The notes under the pieces: model-generated
Databases searched by the model: none
Told to the model about the DNA's origin: nothing
What the model saw: only the letters and a program-made list of their open reading frames with translations
Translations under genes and position numbers: made by a program
Assembly: GCA_965215055.1 (NCBI GenBank)
Contig: OZ244046.1
Coordinates: 169,138-233,137, forward strand
Source: Gammaproteobacteria bacterium
GTDB lineage: Bacteria; Pseudomonadota; Gammaproteobacteria; UBA4575
Reading direction: 5' to 3'
DNA: 64,000 nucleotides
Shown: piece by piece, positions 1-23,772 of the stretch
Position numbering within the stretch: position 1 is the first letter of the stretch
How the letters are laid out: every line of letters begins with the position of its first letter

Positions 1-399
1 ATTAAGGCAATCCTGGAGTCGGCTGTAAATGAGAAAGTTCAACGGGATTGCTTGTTTTTATTTGGTGCTCGTACACAAAAAGACTTGTACTGCCTGGAAG
101 AAATAGCTGACATTGGATCGAAGTGGCATGGAGATCACTCGTTTGAATTTATTCCGGTGCTTAACATGGAGCCTGATGATAGCGACTGGAGTGGAGCCAG
201 GGGCCTGGTAACCGATTATTTAAAGTCTGCTTACGTAGATACTGGTAAGATCTCGTTAACTGAGGCACAGGGCTATCTGTGTGGTCCACCGCCCATGGTT
301 GATGCAGCTATCCAGGTAATGGTTGAGCAGGGTATGAAAAAAGATGACATCTTTTTTGATAAGTTTCTGGACGCGAGTTCGATGCCTGGCGGACGGTGA
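1..399 (+). CDS. C-terminal fragment of an FAD/NAD(P)-binding oxidoreductase (ferredoxin-NADP reductase family reductase component); the gene starts upstream of the window
   Basis: The reading frame is open from base 1 (IKAILESAVNEKVQRD...). The C-terminus, YLCGPPPMVDAAIQVMVEQGMKKDDIFFDKF, is typical of the NAD-binding domain of FNR-like reductases (NqrF and oxygenase-reductase type). Confidence 0.5.
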   Translation: MKAILESAVNEKVQRDCLFLFGARTQKDLYCLEEIADIGSKWHGDHSFEFIPVLNMEPDDSDWSGARGLVTDYLKSAYVDTGKISLTEAQGYLCGPPPMVDAAIQVMVEQGMKKDDIFFDKFLDASSMPGGR

Positions 400-436
400 A
401 AAGATTAAATACTATTCAGAGTATTAGGAGAAGGAT

Positions 437-658
437 ATGCGTACAATTCAAGCACTTGTAGTAATGGCTCTGTGGACGGCAGTGTTCATTGGAATTTTGC
501 ATTTTGCCGGTTTTGGCGATAACTATCGCGAGCCACTTTGGAGCCTGGGCGGTGCGGTGTTACTTATCATTATGTTGATTGGAAACTTTTGGATTTTCTT
601 TGCCATCGCTAAAGAAGAACCTTGGGAATGGGAGAAGGGCAATAACGACAACAAGTAA
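437..658 (+). CDS. small hydrophobic membrane protein (2 predicted TM helices), hypothetical
   Basis: 73-aa ORF with two hydrophobic stretches and an RBS-like AGGAGAAGGA 8 bp upstream; no recognisable family. Confidence 0.35.
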   Translation: MRTIQALVVMALWTAVFIGILHFAGFGDNYREPLWSLGGAVLLIIMLIGNFWIFFAIAKEEPWEWEKGNNDNK

Positions 659-785
659 TATATTCTTTGAAACTTCTTTTGAACTGGCTGCAATGTTGGT
701 TCTTTCCCACCACAGATTACTTGGCGTCGGTAGAACCCAAGTTTGAAATCTACGAGAATAAAATCAACAGGATGGAAGGAGGCAG

Positions 786-1781
786 TTACGTATAGACTTG
801 ATTTTCTTTGATTTCCTGCAGCGTCTTGCAATCAATACACAGCGTGGCAGTAGGCCGTGCTTCCAGCCTTTTAATACCTATCTCTATCCCACAAGCCTCG
901 CAATAGCCATATTCATCCACGTCAATAGACGCTAAAGCCTGGTTGATTTTCTTTACCAGTTTGCTTTCACGATCACGTGTGCGTAGTTCAAGGCTGAATT
1001 CTTCCTCTTGTGTAGCACGATCCGCGGGGTCTGCAAATTGACTTGCATCTTTTCTCATATGATTAACGGTCCGGCTAACTTCATCAAGCAAGTCTTGTTT
1101 CCAGCGCAGCAAAATATCGCGAAAGTGTGCTAGCTGCTTTGGCCCCATATAGCTTTCGCCTCGGTGGGCAGTGTAGGGCGTTATACCTTCAACTGGTAAG
1201 CTAGCAGCAGAGCGCTTATTCAATAACCCGATACGTTTTTTCTTTTTTTCTTCCTTAAGAAGCCTGGTCTTTTCTACCTGTAGTTTGGCTTTAGCTGGCT
1301 TTCTTTTGGGTGCAGCTTTTCGTTTAGGTGTGACTTTTCGTTTAGGCGCAGCCTTTCTTTTAGGCGTGACTTTTCGTTTAGGTGCGGCCTTTCGTTTAGG
1401 TGCGACTTTTCTTTTGGGCGTGACTTTTCGTTTAGGCGCAGCTTTTCTTTTGGGTGTGACTTTTCGTTTAGGTGCAACTTTTCTTTTGGGCGCGGCCTTT
1501 CGTTTAGGTGCAACTTTTCTTTTGGGCGCAGCTTTTCGTTTAGGTGCAACTTTTCTTTTGGGCGCGGCCTTTCGTTTAGGTGCGACTTTTCTTTTGGGTG
1601 TAGCTTTTCGTTTAGGTGTGGCTTTTCTTTTAGGCGCGGCCTTTCGTTTAGATGCAGTTTTTCTTTTGGGCGTGGCCTTTCGTTTAGGTACGATTTTTCT
1701 TTTGGGCACGGCCTTTCTTTTAGGCGCAGCTTTTCTTTTGGGTGCAGCCTTTTTCTTCGTAGTAGATTTTCTGTTTGCCAT
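786..1781 (-). CDS. dksA: RNA polymerase-binding transcription factor DksA with a long N-terminal lysine-rich (KRKAAP/KRKVAP repeat) histone-H1-like extension
   Basis: The C-terminal 140 aa align almost residue-for-residue with E. coli DksA (QLAHFR..W...L..EV.RTV.HM...A..F.DP.DRA.QEEEFSLELR.RDRE.KL.KKI...L...D..EYGYCE.CG.EIGI.RLEARPTA.LCIDCKTL.EI). The N-terminal roughly 170 aa are about 26 tandem copies of a 6-aa unit K-R-K-(A/V/T)-(A/T/V)-P. The likely start is Met19 (MANRKSTTKKK, atg at 1781); the ORF is open to 1835. Confidence 0.75.
   Translation of the reverse strand: MANRKSTTKKKAAPKRKAAPKRKAVPKRKIVPKRKATPKRKTASKRKAAPKRKATPKRKATPKRKVAPKRKAAPKRKVAPKRKAAPKRKVAPKRKAAPKRKVAPKRKVTPKRKAAPKRKVTPKRKVAPKRKAAPKRKVTPKRKAAPKRKVTPKRKAAPKRKPAKAKLQVEKTRLLKEEKKKKRIGLLNKRSAASLPVEGITPYTAHRGESYMGPKQLAHFRDILLRWKQDLLDEVSRTVNHMRKDASQFADPADRATQEEEFSLELRTRDRESKLVKKINQALASIDVDEYGYCEACGIEIGIKRLEARPTATLCIDCKTLQEIKENQVYT
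1287..1762. repeat. about 26 tandem copies of an 18-bp unit (consensus gcagcttttcgtttaggt with alternating variants) lying inside the dksA-like coding region
   Basis: The direct 18-bp periodicity is visible in the sequence (tgcagcttttcgtttagg / tgtgacttttcgtttagg / cgcagcctttcttttagg ...). It creates mirror-image ORFs on both strands. Confidence 0.85.
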
Positions 1782-1879
1782 GATGAAGCCCTTTCTAAAA
1801 CCCGCTTTGATACCAGAGAATAGCTGGTCTGGCAAGCAACGCTAGCATGCAGTCTATACCCAGGTTGATAATACAGGAG

Positions 1880-6495: not shown

Positions 6496-8700
6496 GTGCG
6501 TATGAGCAGGTATTGCGGAGAGAAAATAGTCGAGCCAATACTCCGTGCAGCTCAGCACTGGAAAGATGTGGGGTTGCTATCGGATAGTTCCATATTCGAT
6601 AGAGGTGCAATATGGACATTGTCAAACTTCGAAGCTCTAAATCAGCACGTTGTAAATCAGCCTAAAGAGGGAAAAAAGAGGAATTTTTTCCAGAAACTGG
6701 AGGGTCAGCTTGAACTGACGGTGCCAGGGGTGAAGCAACTCGCAGCCGAGATGCTGTGGCTAATGTTTCTCTGCCCTAGCAACATTAGTGTATCGAAAAA
6801 GCGCGAAGGCATAGAGCGTATATGGAAATGGTCAGGGGAGGCCTTTCCAGAGGATTCCGAGTGGATAAAGGATGATGTTCTGGGTGGTGTAGGCAGTGCA
6901 GGTACAGCTTTTAACACCAAGCGCTGGTGGGAGTTGAGGTTTTTTATTCGTACAATGATTGCCTTCAAAAGCCTTGCAGACCAGGAGCAAAATAAGCTCC
7001 TTTCCGATGGTTGGGAGTTCGCGCAATGGCTTGAACAAGTCCCCGAATGCGACGCTCGCCAATTGCGTCATATGTTCCTGTTTTTACTATTCCCTGACAA
7101 TTTTGAGCGTATTTTAGGAAGGAGAGATCGACGAAGAATTATCCAGAGCTTCTCAGGAAAGTCTCTGGCACAGGTCAAGAAGCTTTCGGCATTAGAGATC
7201 GATCGGAACCTCCTCGAGATACGTAGGCAAAAGGAAGAGGAGTATGGCACTAAGGAGTTGGACTTTTATGCTACCCCGCTTCGTGATCTCTGGGGTGACT
7301 CTAAGGTCGTTAAGGCAGCAAAGCAGCCAGATGATAAAAAGCGGAACGGAAGTGTCAAAATGGCCATAAACCAGATTCTGTATGGTCCTCCAGGAACAGG
7401 AAAGACCTATAGGCTTAATCGTCTAAAAGAAGAGTATTCAGGCAGAAGGCAAACCCTGAGCCGTGATGCATGGTTAATTCAGGAAATGCTGGATGCCAAG
7501 TGGTTTGATGTGATCTTTGGCACATTGTATGACCTGGGCGGTGAGGGCAAGGTCAAGGCAATTCTAAATCATGAGTACGTACAGATGAAGGCGGAGGCTT
7601 TGGGGCGTGGTCGAAACATCGCGAATACAATATGGAGAACCCTTGGGGAACATACTCGTGAAAATTCCAGTACCTCCCGATACAAGCGTCGTAGTGCACC
7701 CCTTGTATTTGACAAGAAACCAAATAGCGTATGGTCGTTGGTCGATGACTGGGAGGAAGAATGTGCAGAGCAGGTGGAGCAAGCCAAGAAATGGAAAACT
7801 GGTCCCAAGCAAGAGGCGTCTTATCAACGGTATGAGTACGTGACGTTTCATCAAGCCTATAGCTACGAAGATTTCGTCGAGGGTATTAGGCCTGTTCAGA
7901 ATGAGGAAACTGAAAATATCGGTTATCAGGTATTGCCCGGTGTATTCAAACGGATATGCCAAAGGGCAAAAGCAGACCCCGATCAGCGGTATGCGATTTT
8001 TATTGATGAGATAAACAGGGGGAACATTGCCAAAATATTTGGTGAGCTGATTACCTTGATAGAAGAAGATAAAAGGGCGATATATAACGATGCCGGAGAC
8101 CTGAAGTCTGGGATGGAGTTGACTCTTCCTTATTCAGGTATGCGATTTGGTGTTCCTGAAAATTTGGATGTCTACGGGACAATGAACACGGCGGACCGCT
8201 CTATAGCCTTACTGGATACTGCGTTACGACGTCGTTTCCAATTCGAAGAGTTAATGCCTGATGCTGGCGTAATTGTTGGCTCACGTGGTGATGGTTGTAT
8301 CGAGGATGGGGGTGGTGGCGTTATCAACCTGCGTGCCTTACTGGAGGCTATGAATCGTCGTATCCGCTTCCTGTTAAACAGAGATATGATGATTGGGCAT
8401 GCCTATTTCATCGACGTGCGTAATTTTGATGATCTCAAGGTGGTTTTGTTCAACAAGATTATTCCCCTTCTGCAGGAATACTTCTATGAGAACTGGCACA
8501 GGATCCAGTTGGTATTCCGAGATGTAGGTCCGACGGGAGAAAAACTGGAACCACAGATTGTATGTCATGACACGCTAAACGAAGTAGAGGTGCTTGGGTT
8601 CGATCATGATGACTTTGATGATCTTACAGAGTACTGGGTTGTAGACTCGGATGAGATCACGCCCGATGCGGTCAGGAAGGTATACGAAGAAGGTGCCTGA
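6496..8700 (+). CDS. mcrB: McrB-like AAA+ GTPase subunit of a type IV (modification-dependent) restriction system; long form with an uncharacterized N-terminal domain
   Basis: Walker A ILYGPPGTGKTY; McrB signature FHQAYSYEDFVEGIRP...; Walker B/McrB motif AIFIDEINRGNIAKIFGELITLIE; arginine finger region TMNTADRSIALLDTALRRRFQFEEL. About 290 aa precede the AAA+ module, and about 125 extra residues sit between Walker A and the FHQAYSYEDF motif relative to E. coli McrB. Confidence 0.8.
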   Translation: MRMSRYCGEKIVEPILRAAQHWKDVGLLSDSSIFDRGAIWTLSNFEALNQHVVNQPKEGKKRNFFQKLEGQLELTVPGVKQLAAEMLWLMFLCPSNISVSKKREGIERIWKWSGEAFPEDSEWIKDDVLGGVGSAGTAFNTKRWWELRFFIRTMIAFKSLADQEQNKLLSDGWEFAQWLEQVPECDARQLRHMFLFLLFPDNFERILGRRDRRRIIQSFSGKSLAQVKKLSALEIDRNLLEIRRQKEEEYGTKELDFYATPLRDLWGDSKVVKAAKQPDDKKRNGSVKMAINQILYGPPGTGKTYRLNRLKEEYSGRRQTLSRDAWLIQEMLDAKWFDVIFGTLYDLGGEGKVKAILNHEYVQMKAEALGRGRNIANTIWRTLGEHTRENSSTSRYKRRSAPLVFDKKPNSVWSLVDDWEEECAEQVEQAKKWKTGPKQEASYQRYEYVTFHQAYSYEDFVEGIRPVQNEETENIGYQVLPGVFKRICQRAKADPDQRYAIFIDEINRGNIAKIFGELITLIEEDKRAIYNDAGDLKSGMELTLPYSGMRFGVPENLDVYGTMNTADRSIALLDTALRRRFQFEELMPDAGVIVGSRGDGCIEDGGGGVINLRALLEAMNRRIRFLLNRDMMIGHAYFIDVRNFDDLKVVLFNKIIPLLQEYFYENWHRIQLVFRDVGPTGEKLEPQIVCHDTLNEVEVLGFDHDDFDDLTEYWVVDSDEITPDAVRKVYEEGA

Positions 8701-8702
8701 TT

Positions 8703-9956
8703 GTGGAGGTGCTGTCGGTAATCGAGCATAAGTCTCTCCAAATTCTACAATCTCGTGGATGGGGTCAGCAGGCACTCGATTATGCGCATGCTGACACACT
8801 CGATAGACTTGAGAAAGAGCTTCCAGCGAAAGCTTGGTCTTGGGGAAAACAGCAAATCAAGTTTGGGCATTATTGTGGTGTCGTCTCATTGGGAAATTTA
8901 TCTATTGAGATTCTTCCCAAGATTTACGGTGCTGAGGTTGACCTGGAGTCCAGCCGTCATGCGTTGGTACGCATGCTTTCCAAGGCACACCGATTGAAGC
9001 TTCATCGAGCGAGCACAGCTGGAATTGCGCTCCAGAAGTACAGTCTTCTTGATGTGTTCATATTGAATTTTTGTGACCAGTTGCATGCCGAGATGACGCA
9101 GGGGATGATTCGAACGTACATAGAGCGCAACGAGAATCTCAACGTATTACGTGGAAGATTACGAATTGAGCAGCAGTTCAAGCAGAACTTGGCTCACCGT
9201 GAGCGGCTTTTTTGTCAATATGATGAGTTAAGCGAGGACAATGTTCACAACCAGGTATTGAAATATGTGCTGAAAATCTTGCTAAAAATGGCGGTAGGGA
9301 ATCGCGCACACCTTCAGGTGGCAGAACTCCTTATGCGCTTTGATACGATAAGCGATGTGGCTGTAGATGCAGCTGTACTGGACTTGCTGAACTTTGATCG
9401 TTCAACTACCAGGTATGAGCCGATTTTCGACCAATGCAGGTGGTTCATGGAGGGTATGCATCCAGATGTCCTGGCGGGAAAGGAAACCTGCGCTTCATTC
9501 TTATTTGATATGAATCGGTTATTTGAAGCATACGTTGGTGCTGAGTTAAGGAAAAAGGCATGGGGGGAAGGACTGCGGGTAAGAGAGCAGGGCCCGCAGA
9601 AGTATTTCGCTTATCGTAAGGATACCGATAAAAATGTCTTCGTGATGAAGCCTGACGTTTCGCTGATGGATGAGAATAATCAGGTTGTTGCGATCGCGGA
9701 TGCCAAGTGGAAACTTCTGGATGAAGAAGAAACGAAGTTGGGAGTATCTCAGGCAGATCTGTATCAAATAGAAAGTTACGCGACAAGGTATAATGTAAGG
9801 AAATTGTTTCTGGTTTATCCCATGCAGCAGAAGATGACGATGCCGGTTCAACTAGCTCTTAAGGGATCGGGAGCGACGTTGAATATTGTGCCTTTCGATG
9901 TCACTGCAAGTAGCAGTAACGAACTACCAAAGCTGTCTTTTGGAGAGTGGCATTGA
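8703..9956 (+). CDS. mcrC: McrC-like endonuclease subunit (PD-(D/E)xK) of the McrBC system
   Basis: GTG start 2 bp after the mcrB stop (translationally coupled). 417 aa, the size and position of McrC. A C-terminal PD-(D/E)xK-like segment (VMKPDVSLMDENNQVVAIADAKWK) is consistent with the McrC nuclease core. Confidence 0.7.
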   Translation: MEVLSVIEHKSLQILQSRGWGQQALDYAHADTLDRLEKELPAKAWSWGKQQIKFGHYCGVVSLGNLSIEILPKIYGAEVDLESSRHALVRMLSKAHRLKLHRASTAGIALQKYSLLDVFILNFCDQLHAEMTQGMIRTYIERNENLNVLRGRLRIEQQFKQNLAHRERLFCQYDELSEDNVHNQVLKYVLKILLKMAVGNRAHLQVAELLMRFDTISDVAVDAAVLDLLNFDRSTTRYEPIFDQCRWFMEGMHPDVLAGKETCASFLFDMNRLFEAYVGAELRKKAWGEGLRVREQGPQKYFAYRKDTDKNVFVMKPDVSLMDENNQVVAIADAKWKLLDEEETKLGVSQADLYQIESYATRYNVRKLFLVYPMQQKMTMPVQLALKGSGATLNIVPFDVTASSSNELPKLSFGEWH

Positions 9957-21896: not shown

Positions 21897-21988
21897 GGAG
21901 AGATGCCGGAGTGGTTGAACGGGCTCGCCTGGAAAGTGAGTGTGTCCTCAATGGGGCACCGAGGGTTCGAATCCCTCTCTCTCCGCCA
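21897..21988 (+). tRNA. tRNA-Ser (anticodon GGA), class II tRNA with a long variable arm
   Basis: GGAGAGATGCCGGAGTGGTTGAACGGGCTCGCCTGGAAAGTGAGTGTGTCCTCAATGGGGCACCGAGGGTTCGAATCCCTCTCTCTCCGCCA. The 7-bp acceptor stem GGAGAGA/TCTCTCC pairs, the D-loop and T-loop (GGTTCGAATCC) are canonical, the anticodon loop is CTGGAAA, and CCA is encoded. Confidence 0.85.
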
Positions 21989-23660: not shown

Positions 23661-23772
23661 GTGCGGCCTGTGTCAGTACCCTTGTGACGAAAGCTGTGAA
23701 CCCCGCCAGGCCTGGAAGGGAGCAACGGTAGCAGTTGTTTCGGGTACAAAGGAACTACTGGCACAGGTCGCC
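23661..23772 (+). ncRNA. ffs: signal recognition particle RNA (4.5S RNA, ffs)
   Basis: Contains the SRP domain-IV consensus CCAGGCCUGGAAGGGAGCAACGG (compare E. coli AGGUCCGGAAGGAAGCAGC) with a GGAA tetraloop. 5' GCGGCCUGUGUCAGUA can pair with 3' UACUGGCACAGGUCGC over about 16 bp to form a closing helix. Its position immediately upstream of dnaX matches conserved ffs-dnaX synteny. Confidence 0.7.

What the first reader, a model, noticed from the sequence alone, without database searches (positions are those of the whole stretch)
786..1835. DksA ortholog fused to a roughly 170-residue histone-H1-like lysine-rich repeat domain
The C-terminal 140 residues are an unmistakable full-length DksA: coiled coil with the acidic tip residues, C4 zinc finger CEACG...CIDC. 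The N-terminus is about 26 copies of KRK(A/V/T)(A/T/V)P, the AKP-type repeat of bacterial histone-H1-like proteins such as AlgP/AlgR3, Hc2 and BpH1. Canonical DksA acts in the RNA polymerase secondary channel and has no DNA-binding domain. A polycationic tail would tether it to the nucleoid or DNA, and could alter local concentration, phase behaviour or ppGpp-dependent regulation. I do not recall this fusion being a described DksA architecture. No second plain dksA is visible in the window.
Basis: partly seen in the sequence, partly recalled or inferred. Interest (0 to 1): 0.65.

Follow-up and report, generated by a model that had tools for sequence, protein, structure and literature searches.

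The report
DksA with histone-H1-like lysine tail
This is a real gene for the RNA-polymerase regulator DksA carrying a long, disordered, highly positive tail; the design is common in uncultured Gammaproteobacteria, has a studied counterpart in Streptomyces, and is therefore noteworthy but not new.

Summary
On the minus strand, 786..1781 encodes a 331-aa protein starting at the ATG at 1781; the TTG at 1835 is only the longest possible ORF. Residues 191-331 are a complete canonical DksA. They pass TIGR02420, align without gaps to E. coli DksA 11-149, and keep the tip Asp residues, the four zinc Cys and the ppGpp-site residues. Residues 9-158 are 25 in-register K(R/K)Kxx(P/S) hexapeptides. The tail (residues 1-163) has net charge about +79, no acidic residue, and is predicted disordered.

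The fusion is not an artefact. All 120 best database relatives carry K/R-rich N-terminal tails of 42-188 aa, some on complete 1.3-2.7 Mb chromosomes with the same xseA-dksA synteny. A search with the core alone found such tails in at least half of the closest DksA clusters.

The novelty claim fails. Streptomyces DdbA is an H1-like domain plus a DksA-like domain, and its tail binds and condenses DNA. The Xanthomonas euvesicatoria DksA is 256 aa, with an AKP-type peptide seen by mass spectrometry.

Most likely the protein is a ppGpp-responsive DksA held on the nucleoid by a non-specific polycationic tail. That mechanism is inferred, not shown. It is a new member of a known but under-studied kind, of moderate to low interest.

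The parts
786..1781 (-). dksA-long CDS: 331 aa, 37.6 kDa, pI 11.3, stop codon at 786-788
   Evidence: ORF listing. Start chosen from N-terminal conservation with homologues and the RBS. Pfam and NCBIfam DksA hits.
1789..1794 (-). Shine-Dalgarno-like AAAGGG, 7 nt upstream of the ATG
   Evidence: Read directly from the sequence. It is a consensus resemblance only.
1293..1781 (-). Polycationic tail, residues 1-163: 54 K, 26 R, 32 A, 25 P, no D or E, net charge about +79, predicted disordered
   Evidence: Composition. AlphaFold2 gives pLDDT 35-58 and no secondary structure for residues 1-160.
1308..1757 (-). Array of 25 in-register hexapeptide repeats K(R/K)Kxx(P/S), residues 9-158. The DNA period is 36 bp because the Arg codon mostly alternates AGA/CGA.
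   Evidence: TRF: 1300-1752, period 36, 12.6 copies, 84% matches, score 563. Unit-by-unit codon table.
1212..1292 (-). Charged linker helix, residues 164-190 (KAKLQVEKTRLLKEEKKKKRIGLLNKR). It lies N-terminal to the position of E. coli DksA residue 11.
   Evidence: AlphaFold2 predicts helix 164-190, with block pLDDT 68-88. The motif K[KR][KRQ][KR]IxLL occurs in 17 of the 120 best homologues, all among the top 32.
789..1211 (-). Canonical DksA core, residues 191-331, equivalent to E. coli DksA 11-151
   Evidence: Gapless alignment to 1tjl, E=2e-53. Foldseek best hits are 5vsw_M, 1tjl_A and 7khi_M, with TM-score 0.76-0.79 normalised by target length. pLDDT is about 90.
921..1142 (-). Coiled coil, residues 214-287, with the tip motif D251-P-A-D254-R-A256 (E. 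coli D71, D74, A76) at 1014-1031
   Evidence: AF2 helices 214-247, 252-268 and 270-287. Alignment to E. coli DksA. D251, P252, D254, R255 and A256 are invariant in 67 sequences.
828..902 (-). C4 zinc finger C294-x2-C297 ... C315-x2-C318. Nearby are the ppGpp site-2 equivalents R309, I316 and K319 (E. coli R129, I136, K139).
   Evidence: Pfam zf-dskA_traR, 1.8e-11. Alignment. Conservation.

Best explanation
The gene encodes the DksA of an uncultured gammaproteobacterium; an identical LepA lies on a 1.68 Mb contig, which suggests a small genome. It is the only DksA in this 64-kb window.

The C-terminal 141 residues are a complete canonical DksA. By homology they should insert the coiled coil into the RNA polymerase secondary channel. 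Together with the beta-prime rim helices they should form ppGpp binding site 2 and so mediate stringent control of transcription initiation.

In front of the core sit a 27-residue charged helix and a roughly 160-residue intrinsically disordered polycation. The polycation is 25 repeats of K-R-K-x-x-P, with net charge about +79 and no acidic residue.

The tail most likely binds DNA non-specifically, by electrostatic and minor-groove contacts. This is how the C-terminal domain of histone H1, AlgP, Hc2, the mycobacterial HupB tail and the N-terminal domain of Streptomyces DdbA behave. DksA would then be concentrated on the nucleoid next to DNA-engaged RNA polymerase, and might add some DNA compaction.

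Shown here: the gene, its frame and start; the integrity of the DksA core; tail composition and predicted disorder; wide conservation of the architecture.

Inferred: RNA polymerase and ppGpp activity (from residue conservation) and DNA binding by the tail (from analogy).
For: DksA core:
- TIGR02420 above its cut-off; Pfam DksA_N plus zf-dskA_traR.
- Gapless alignment to E. coli DksA 11-149 (about 62% identity by Foldseek), conserving L15, H39, D71, D74, A76, R87, R91, K94, K98, C114, C117, R125, R129, C135, I136, C138, K139 and E143.
- AF2 core pLDDT about 90; best fold hits are E. coli RNAP-DksA-ppGpp complexes.

Canonical locus:
- xseA-dksA-gluQ with guaB/guaA nearby in relative L011; xseA-dksA in L001.

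Tail is real and under selection:
- All 120 best hits carry a K/R-rich extension of 42-188 aa.
- In a core-only search of 1.84 billion cluster representatives, 68 of 133 complete cores among the best 150 have a tail of at least 40 aa with at least 25% K+R. About a dozen more are A/K/P-rich.
- Close relatives are 79-86% identical in the core but have different repeat units and tail lengths (121-185 aa). Composition is conserved, sequence is not.
- Variation inside the array is synonymous (AGA/CGA, third positions) or confined to the two x positions.

DNA-binding analogy:
- The DdbA N-terminal H1-like domain binds and condenses DNA, while its DksA-like domain alone does not (PMC3643593).
- Near-identical APKRK repeats form stand-alone small basic proteins in other phyla.

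Translation of such a tail:
- Demonstrated for Xanthomonas DksA (PMC5559785).
Against: - No experiment on this protein, or on any proteobacterial tailed DksA, shows DNA binding.
- Pfam HC2 (PF07382) does not hit the window protein even at E<=1, so 'H1-like' rests on composition only.
- A polycation would also bind RNA, polyphosphate or acidic proteins.
- In Xanthomonas a processed DksA form was seen besides the full-length one, so the tail may be removed in part of the pool.
- No sigma-70-like promoter or intrinsic terminator was found around the gene, so expression signals are undefined.
- Whether another, plain dksA exists elsewhere in the genome is unknown.
Confidence: 0.6

Rival explanations
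1. The tail mainly binds a different polyanion, either polyphosphate (as proposed for AlgP) or RNA/ribosomes. It would then link DksA to polyP granules, to polyP-stimulated proteolysis, or to nascent rRNA rather than to DNA.
For: The AlgP lysine-rich domain is discussed as a polyP-interacting, phase-separating module (PMC9239181). That paper's reference list also cites work that DksA regulates polyP accumulation in E. coli. The tail has no sequence-specific features, only charge.
Against: For the only characterised H1-like/DksA fusion, DNA was the demonstrated ligand. DksA acts on DNA-bound RNA polymerase, so DNA is the nearest abundant polyanion. Nothing in the window links the gene to ppk or ppx.
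Confidence: 0.18
2. The tail is a removable pro-sequence or degron, or is bypassed by internal initiation. The active species would be a canonical DksA of about 150 aa, and the tail would only tune stability or abundance.
For: A processed DksA variant was observed in Xanthomonas alongside the full-length form (PMC5559785). Lys/Arg-rich disordered regions are sensitive to proteases.
Against: There is no convincing internal start. The only in-frame candidates between the array and the core are TTG at codon 187, without an SD, and ATG at codon 212. The latter equals the conserved internal M32 of E. coli DksA and would truncate the globular domain. Conservation of long tails across more than 100 lineages argues for a function of the tail itself.
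Confidence: 0.1
3. The tail is a selectively near-neutral low-complexity expansion produced by replication slippage, tolerated because the DksA N-terminus is solvent-exposed.
For: Repeat units and copy numbers differ between close relatives. The 36-bp DNA periodicity indicates recent tandem duplication.
Against: Across 120 homologues the extension is always strongly basic. In this protein it has no acidic residue in 163 positions, and the frame is always kept. Neutral slippage would not maintain charge and frame so uniformly. Tails also recur on DksA-like proteins in other phyla.
Confidence: 0.1
4. It is an artefact: the repeat array is mis-assembled, or the start is mis-called so that the array is not translated.
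For: The exact copy number in a 450-bp tandem array cannot be verified without reads. In one related MAG (L003) the gene is frame-broken. The window protein itself is not on record in the protein collection.
Against: The frame is open through all 25 units. The N-terminus upstream of the array is conserved in relatives. The same architecture occurs on several complete chromosomes and in more than 100 independent assemblies. An equivalent tail is proven to be translated in Xanthomonas.
Confidence: 0.02

Closest known systems
Escherichia coli DksA (PDB 1TJL; RNAP complexes 5VSW, 7KHI)
   Same: Residues 191-331 are a full-length equivalent. The alignment is gapless (62% identity by Foldseek), with the same fold, the DxxDxA tip, the Cys4 zinc finger and the ppGpp site-2 residues.
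   Different: It carries 180 extra N-terminal residues: a polycationic disordered tail and a charged helix. N88 is Thr. gluQ is not downstream in this genome.
Streptomyces coelicolor DdbA (SCO2075), H1-like plus DksA-like bifunctional nucleoid protein (PMC3643593)
   Same: The domain order is the same: an N-terminal lysine-rich H1-like repeat region and a C-terminal DksA-type domain with Cys4 and both tip aspartates. For DdbA the tail was shown to bind and condense DNA.
   Different: DdbA comes from a different phylum. Its DksA-like domain is much more distant from E. coli DksA (BLAST 8e-11), its extension is shorter (about 93 aa, five S/T-A/T-A-K-K pentapeptides), and two further paralogues exist. 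The authors called the N-terminal half specific to streptomycetes. The window protein is instead an ortholog of proteobacterial DksA, so the fusion probably arose independently. Orthology to DdbA was not tested here.
Xanthomonas euvesicatoria DksA (XCV2556), re-annotated to 256 aa (PMC5559785)
   Same: It is a gammaproteobacterial DksA with an Ala/Lys/Pro-rich N-terminal extension (MS peptide AAPAAAKPAAKPVASK). Translation from the upstream start was proven by mutagenesis and western blot.
   Different: The extension is shorter (about 109 aa) and is of the AKP rather than the KRKxxP type. The paper treats it as an annotation correction and does not address function. A processed form was also seen.
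Bacterial histone-H1-like proteins and tails: AlgP, Hc2, mycobacterial HupB C-terminal tail, CarD of Anaeromyxobacter
   Same: All are short-period Lys/Ala/Pro-rich repeats that are intrinsically disordered and polycationic. CarD(Ad) and HupB show that such tails can be appended to folded DNA- or RNAP-binding domains and be essential for function.
   Different: There is no detectable sequence homology; Pfam HC2 is not hit. Here the tail is N-terminal and unusually regular (25 hexapeptides), with an Arg in every unit.

Membership tests
DksA (RNA polymerase-binding transcription factor, TIGR02420 / PF21157 + PF01258) | Scores above the curated cut-offs of the family models | tested here: met
   TIGR02420 gives 165 bits against a cut-off of 115.5. 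PF21157 gives 107.3 against 27, and PF01258 gives 44.3 against 24.9. The enterobacterial-level model NF008045 is not reached (196 against 289).
DksA (RNA polymerase-binding transcription factor, TIGR02420 / PF21157 + PF01258) | Coiled-coil tip with the two aspartates (E. coli D71, D74) and A76 | tested here: met
   D251, D254 and A256 align to D71, D74 and A76. They are invariant in the 67-sequence alignment.
DksA (RNA polymerase-binding transcription factor, TIGR02420 / PF21157 + PF01258) | Cys4 zinc finger | tested here: met
   C294, C297, C315 and C318 align to C114, C117, C135 and C138.
DksA (RNA polymerase-binding transcription factor, TIGR02420 / PF21157 + PF01258) | ppGpp site-2 residues (E. 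coli R91, K94, K98, R129, I136, K139; the residue list is from my own knowledge of the RNAP-DksA-ppGpp structures) | tested here: met
   R271, K274, K278, R309, I316 and K319 are all conserved in the gapless alignment.
DksA (RNA polymerase-binding transcription factor, TIGR02420 / PF21157 + PF01258) | DksA fold: coiled coil plus globular zinc domain plus C-terminal helix | tested here: met
   The AF2 core has pLDDT about 90. Foldseek best hits are 5vsw_M, 1tjl_A and 7khi_M, with TM-score 0.76-0.79 normalised by target length.
DksA (RNA polymerase-binding transcription factor, TIGR02420 / PF21157 + PF01258) | Binds the RNA polymerase secondary channel and potentiates ppGpp | not testable with these tools
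   This needs in vitro transcription or complementation.
DksA (RNA polymerase-binding transcription factor, TIGR02420 / PF21157 + PF01258) | Canonical dksA-gluQ gene pair | tested here: not met
   No gluQ homologue is found anywhere in the window. The pair is present in relatives L011 and L002. This feature is supportive rather than defining.
Histone H1-like nucleoprotein HC2 (PF07382) and bacterial H1-like proteins | Match to the family model | tested here: not met
   PF07382 does not hit at E<=1 for the window protein. Some homologues carry a precomputed PF07382 hit. The resemblance is compositional.
Histone H1-like nucleoprotein HC2 (PF07382) and bacterial H1-like proteins | Short-period Lys-rich (A/P/T-containing) repeats, strongly basic and disordered | tested here: met
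   There are 25 KRKxxP units, net charge about +79 and no D or E. pLDDT is below 50 with no secondary structure.
Histone H1-like nucleoprotein HC2 (PF07382) and bacterial H1-like proteins | Non-specific DNA binding and condensation | not testable with these tools
   This needs EMSA, AFM or localisation experiments.
DdbA-type bifunctional H1-like/DksA-like proteins (Streptomyces) | N-terminal H1-like repeat region fused to a C-terminal DksA-type domain | tested here: met
   The architecture is shown. The description of DdbA is in PMC3643593.
DdbA-type bifunctional H1-like/DksA-like proteins (Streptomyces) | Orthology or common origin of the fusion with SCO2075 | not tested
The core here is closest to the proteobacterial type, so independent origin is likely (inference).

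The most novel reading that the evidence does not exclude
In a large, mostly uncultured part of the Gammaproteobacteria (and, by Xanthomonas, some cultured ones) the housekeeping DksA, possibly the only one, is itself a nucleoid-associated polycation. In those organisms ppGpp/DksA control would operate from the chromatin rather than from a freely diffusing pool. Tail length or repeat number would tune DksA occupancy on RNA polymerase, nucleoid compaction or condensate formation. This has not been studied functionally in any proteobacterium.
Probability: 0.4. Interest if true: 0.55.

Novelty: new member of a known kind. Interest (0 to 1): 0.3.

Why it matters
DksA is usually described as a small, freely diffusing factor of about 150 aa with no nucleic-acid-binding part. 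The data here show that a polycationic, H1-like N-terminal tail is a common natural state of genuine proteobacterial DksA orthologs. At least half of the closest 50%-identity clusters carry one. The only functional work is on a distant Streptomyces analogue.

This individual gene adds nothing categorically new. It is, however, a very clean example: 25 perfect-register repeats, charge +79, an intact canonical core. It could serve as a test case for how tethering a secondary-channel factor to DNA changes stringent control. It is also a reminder that short annotated dksA genes in GC-rich or repeat-rich genomes may be mis-started.

Tried and rejected
- Taxonomic placement failed. Related loci, the LepA search and cluster-member names all return only 'MAG: Gammaproteobacteria bacterium'. 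The window has no rRNA.
- Exact look-ups of the window's DksA and XseA found nothing on record. A same-species short-read MAG contig (L012) appears to stop about 10 kb short of dksA, estimated from the LepA offsets. There is therefore no independent assembly of this exact array.
- The promoter and terminator scan around the gene found nothing.
- Does tail presence cluster by core similarity? Nearest-neighbour concordance was 0.52 against 0.42 in shuffles (maximum 0.61). This is inconclusive, and sampling of cluster representatives is biased toward tailed proteins.
- Other lysine-rich proteins or a second DksA in the window: none found.
- Internal start codons that would yield a tail-less DksA: none convincing.
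- Literature searches for a functional description of a lysine-rich DksA tail in Proteobacteria found none beyond the Xanthomonas re-annotation.

Full report
**The observation**

The window has an open reading frame on the minus strand at 786..1835, 349 codons from a TTG. The probable start is the ATG at 1781..1779, which gives 331 aa. An AAAGGG Shine-Dalgarno-like site lies 7 nt upstream. The resulting N-terminus, MANRKSTTKKK, matches the N-termini of the closest homologues (MAAKKSATKRK, MAVKKSTRKKK, MVVKKSIRNK).

Pfam finds DksA_N (4.6e-31) and zf-dskA_traR (1.8e-11) in the C-terminal part. The NCBIfam equivalog TIGR02420 'dksA' scores 165 bits against a cut-off of 115.5. Tandem Repeats Finder reports a 36-bp unit in 12.6 copies at 1300-1752, with score 563.

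At the protein level there are 25 hexapeptides in perfect register: 24 KRKxx(P/S) and one KKKAAP, at residues 9-158, followed by a partial KRKPAK. The DNA period is 36 bp rather than 18 bp because the Arg codon mostly alternates AGA and CGA. All other variation is at third codon positions or in the two 'x' residues (A/V/T/I). The + strand ORF 1285..1845 (GAAFRLG repeats) is simply the mirror image of this array.

**Anatomy of the protein**

| Region | Residues | Properties |
|---|---|---|
| Tail | 1-163 | 54 K, 26 R, 32 A, 25 P, no acidic residue; net charge about +79; pI 12 |
| Linker | 164-190 | Charged segment KAKLQVEKTRLLKEEKKKKRIGLLNKR |
| Core | 191-331 | Acidic (pI 5.4); aligns without gaps to E. 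coli DksA 11-149 (PDB 1TJL, E=2e-53) |

With an offset of 180, these E. coli residues are conserved: L15, H39, D71, D74, A76, R87, R91, K94, K98, C114, C117, R125, R129, C135, I136, C138, K139 and E143. N88 is Thr. My assignment of these residues to the coiled-coil tip, the zinc site and ppGpp site 2 rests on established knowledge of the E. coli RNAP-DksA-ppGpp structures.

AlphaFold2, run with a 67-sequence alignment, predicts the following:
- no structure for residues 1-160 (pLDDT 35-58);
- a helix at 164-190 (block pLDDT 68-88);
- a confident DksA fold (pLDDT about 90) for the rest.

The best Foldseek matches are DksA in the E. coli RNA polymerase/ppGpp complexes 5VSW and 7KHI, and free DksA 1TJL, with TM-score 0.76-0.79 normalised by target length.

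**Is the fusion real?**

Yes. A search of 5.8 billion proteins with the full-length sequence returned 120 best hits, and every one has a K/R-rich N-terminal extension of 42-188 aa. Several sit on complete chromosomes of 1.3-2.7 Mb.

That search is biased by the tail, so I repeated it with the core alone against 1.84 billion cluster representatives. Among the 133 complete cores in the best 150, 68 have an extension of at least 40 aa with at least 25% K+R. About a dozen more are Ala/Lys/Pro-rich, and tails reach about 300 aa. Clustering at 50% identity over-represents tailed proteins, so this is not a true frequency. It does show that the architecture is widespread.

The closest relatives are 79-86% identical in the core but have different repeat units and tail lengths of 121-185 aa. 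Examples are KKKAAP/KKKAAV, ATKRKP, and 45-aa units. Charge and composition are kept while the sequence turns over.

Synteny confirms orthology with canonical dksA:
- relative L011 has guaA-guaB / xseA-dksA(283 aa)-gluQ;
- L001 has xseA-dksA (about 354 aa);
- the window has guaA-guaB / xseA-dksA but lacks gluQ altogether.

There is no convincing internal start that would give a tail-less DksA. No second DksA-like ORF and no other lysine-rich protein occur in the 64 kb. The exact repeat number cannot be verified without reads. Any collapse or expansion by whole units would keep the frame, so the architecture does not depend on it.

**Organism**

The window has 45.7% G+C. A LepA 100% identical to the window's is on a 1.68 Mb contig. 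All relatives are named only 'MAG: Gammaproteobacteria bacterium'. Finer placement was not possible.

**What is already known**

It is not.

- Aldridge et al. 2013 (PMC3643593) described Streptomyces coelicolor DdbA (SCO2075). [quoted passage not shown] The full-length protein and the N-terminal domain, but not the DksA-like domain, shift and condense DNA. Overexpression suppresses relA phenotypes.
- Abendroth et al. 2017 (PMC5559785) showed that Xanthomonas euvesicatoria DksA is 256 aa rather than the annotated 147 aa. They used mass spectrometry, start-codon mutagenesis and western blot. The upstream peptide is AAPAAAKPAAKPVASK, an AKP-type sequence. They also saw a processed form, and did not discuss function.
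- Mycobacterial HupB has an indispensable H1-like tail (PMC5676037).

I found no paper that analyses the function of a lysine-rich tail on a proteobacterial DksA.

**Mechanism**

The best-supported reading is that the core works as ordinary DksA in the RNA polymerase secondary channel together with ppGpp. The tail is a sequence-independent polyanion binder that keeps the protein on the nucleoid.

The DksA N-terminus is thought to be solvent-exposed at the rim of the secondary channel; I recall this from the E. coli structures and did not compute it here. A disordered polycation of about 160 residues is long enough to reach DNA held by the same polymerase. Its likely effects are a raised local concentration, longer residence on promoter complexes, and possibly compaction. 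All of this is inference by analogy with DdbA and other H1-like tails.

Rival readings are:
- binding of polyphosphate or RNA instead of DNA;
- a removable pro-sequence or degron;
- near-neutral slippage;
- an artefact.

The last two are disfavoured by the uniform conservation of charge and frame in more than 100 lineages.

**Membership**

Every sequence and structure criterion tested for DksA is met. Only the enterobacterial-level model NF008045 and the gluQ neighbourhood are not.

For H1-like families the resemblance is compositional. Pfam HC2 does not hit the window protein.

The DdbA architecture is shared, but common descent is unlikely: the phylum differs, and the core here is a proteobacterial ortholog. 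Similar tails also precede a DksA2-type core without Cys4 in L002 and a DksA/TraR-like domain in a Planctomycetota MAG, L004. This suggests repeated, convergent acquisition.

**Verdict**

The gene is a new member of a known, widespread but little-studied kind. Interest is moderate to low (0.3).

The most novel reading still open is that DksA is a chromatin-bound factor in a large part of the Gammaproteobacteria, and that this changes how stringent control operates. That would deserve about 0.55 if shown.

Noticed in passing
window 1-785, compared with L011 6890-7816 and L002 6371-7339: gluQ (glutamyl-Q tRNA(Asp) synthetase) follows dksA in relatives and in the classical E. coli operon. It is absent downstream of dksA here and from the whole 64-kb window. 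Only 127 bp separate the dksA stop from a convergent 73-aa membrane ORF.
   Followed up: partly
L002 5494-6453: In a soil gammaproteobacterial MAG, a lysine-rich tail of about 150 aa is fused to a DksA2-type core (CDET...CLEA instead of Cys4, as in P. aeruginosa DksA2), next to gluQ. Tails are therefore not restricted to zinc-finger DksA.
   Followed up: partly
L004 5473-6345: A Planctomycetota MAG encodes a lysine-rich N-terminal tail fused to a DksA/TraR-like domain without Cys4. This is a third phylum with this kind of fusion.
   Followed up: no
L005 5962-6432, L006 5845-6282, L009 5896-6141: Small stand-alone basic proteins with near-identical APKRK(V/A) repeats occur in Gemmatimonadaceae, Dependentiae and Nitrosopumilus MAGs. 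They look like H1-like nucleoid proteins built from the same repeat.
   Followed up: no
L003 5600-6611: In this related MAG the dksA frame is broken between the tail and the core; only a 116-aa ORF covers the core. This is probably an assembly or consensus error in or near the repeat, and shows that these arrays are error-prone in MAGs.
   Followed up: no
window 1212-1292 (residues 164-190): An extra predicted helix (KAKLQVEKTRLLKEEKKKKRIGLLNKR, pLDDT 68-88) lies between the tail and the core. Its KKKKRIxLL motif occurs in only 17 of the 120 best homologues, all among the top 32 hits. Its function is unknown.
   Followed up: partly
window 1308-1757: The array contains nine PKRKV and seven TPKRK motifs. 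These resemble classical monopartite nuclear-localisation signals and the SPKK minor-groove motif. No evidence bears on any eukaryote-related role.
   Followed up: no
window 6496-9956: An McrB-like AAA_5 ATPase (734 aa) is followed by McrC (PF10117, 7.8e-75). This is a McrBC-type restriction system just downstream of guaA.
   Followed up: no
window 1285-1845 (+): A 186-aa ORF of GAAFRLG-type repeats on the opposite strand is the reverse-complement shadow of the lysine-repeat array. It could be mis-called as a gene.
   Followed up: yes
window 21897-21985 and 23671-23766: A tRNA gene and the small SRP RNA are the only Rfam matches in the window. There is no rRNA, so the lineage could not be placed by 16S.
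   Followed up: no
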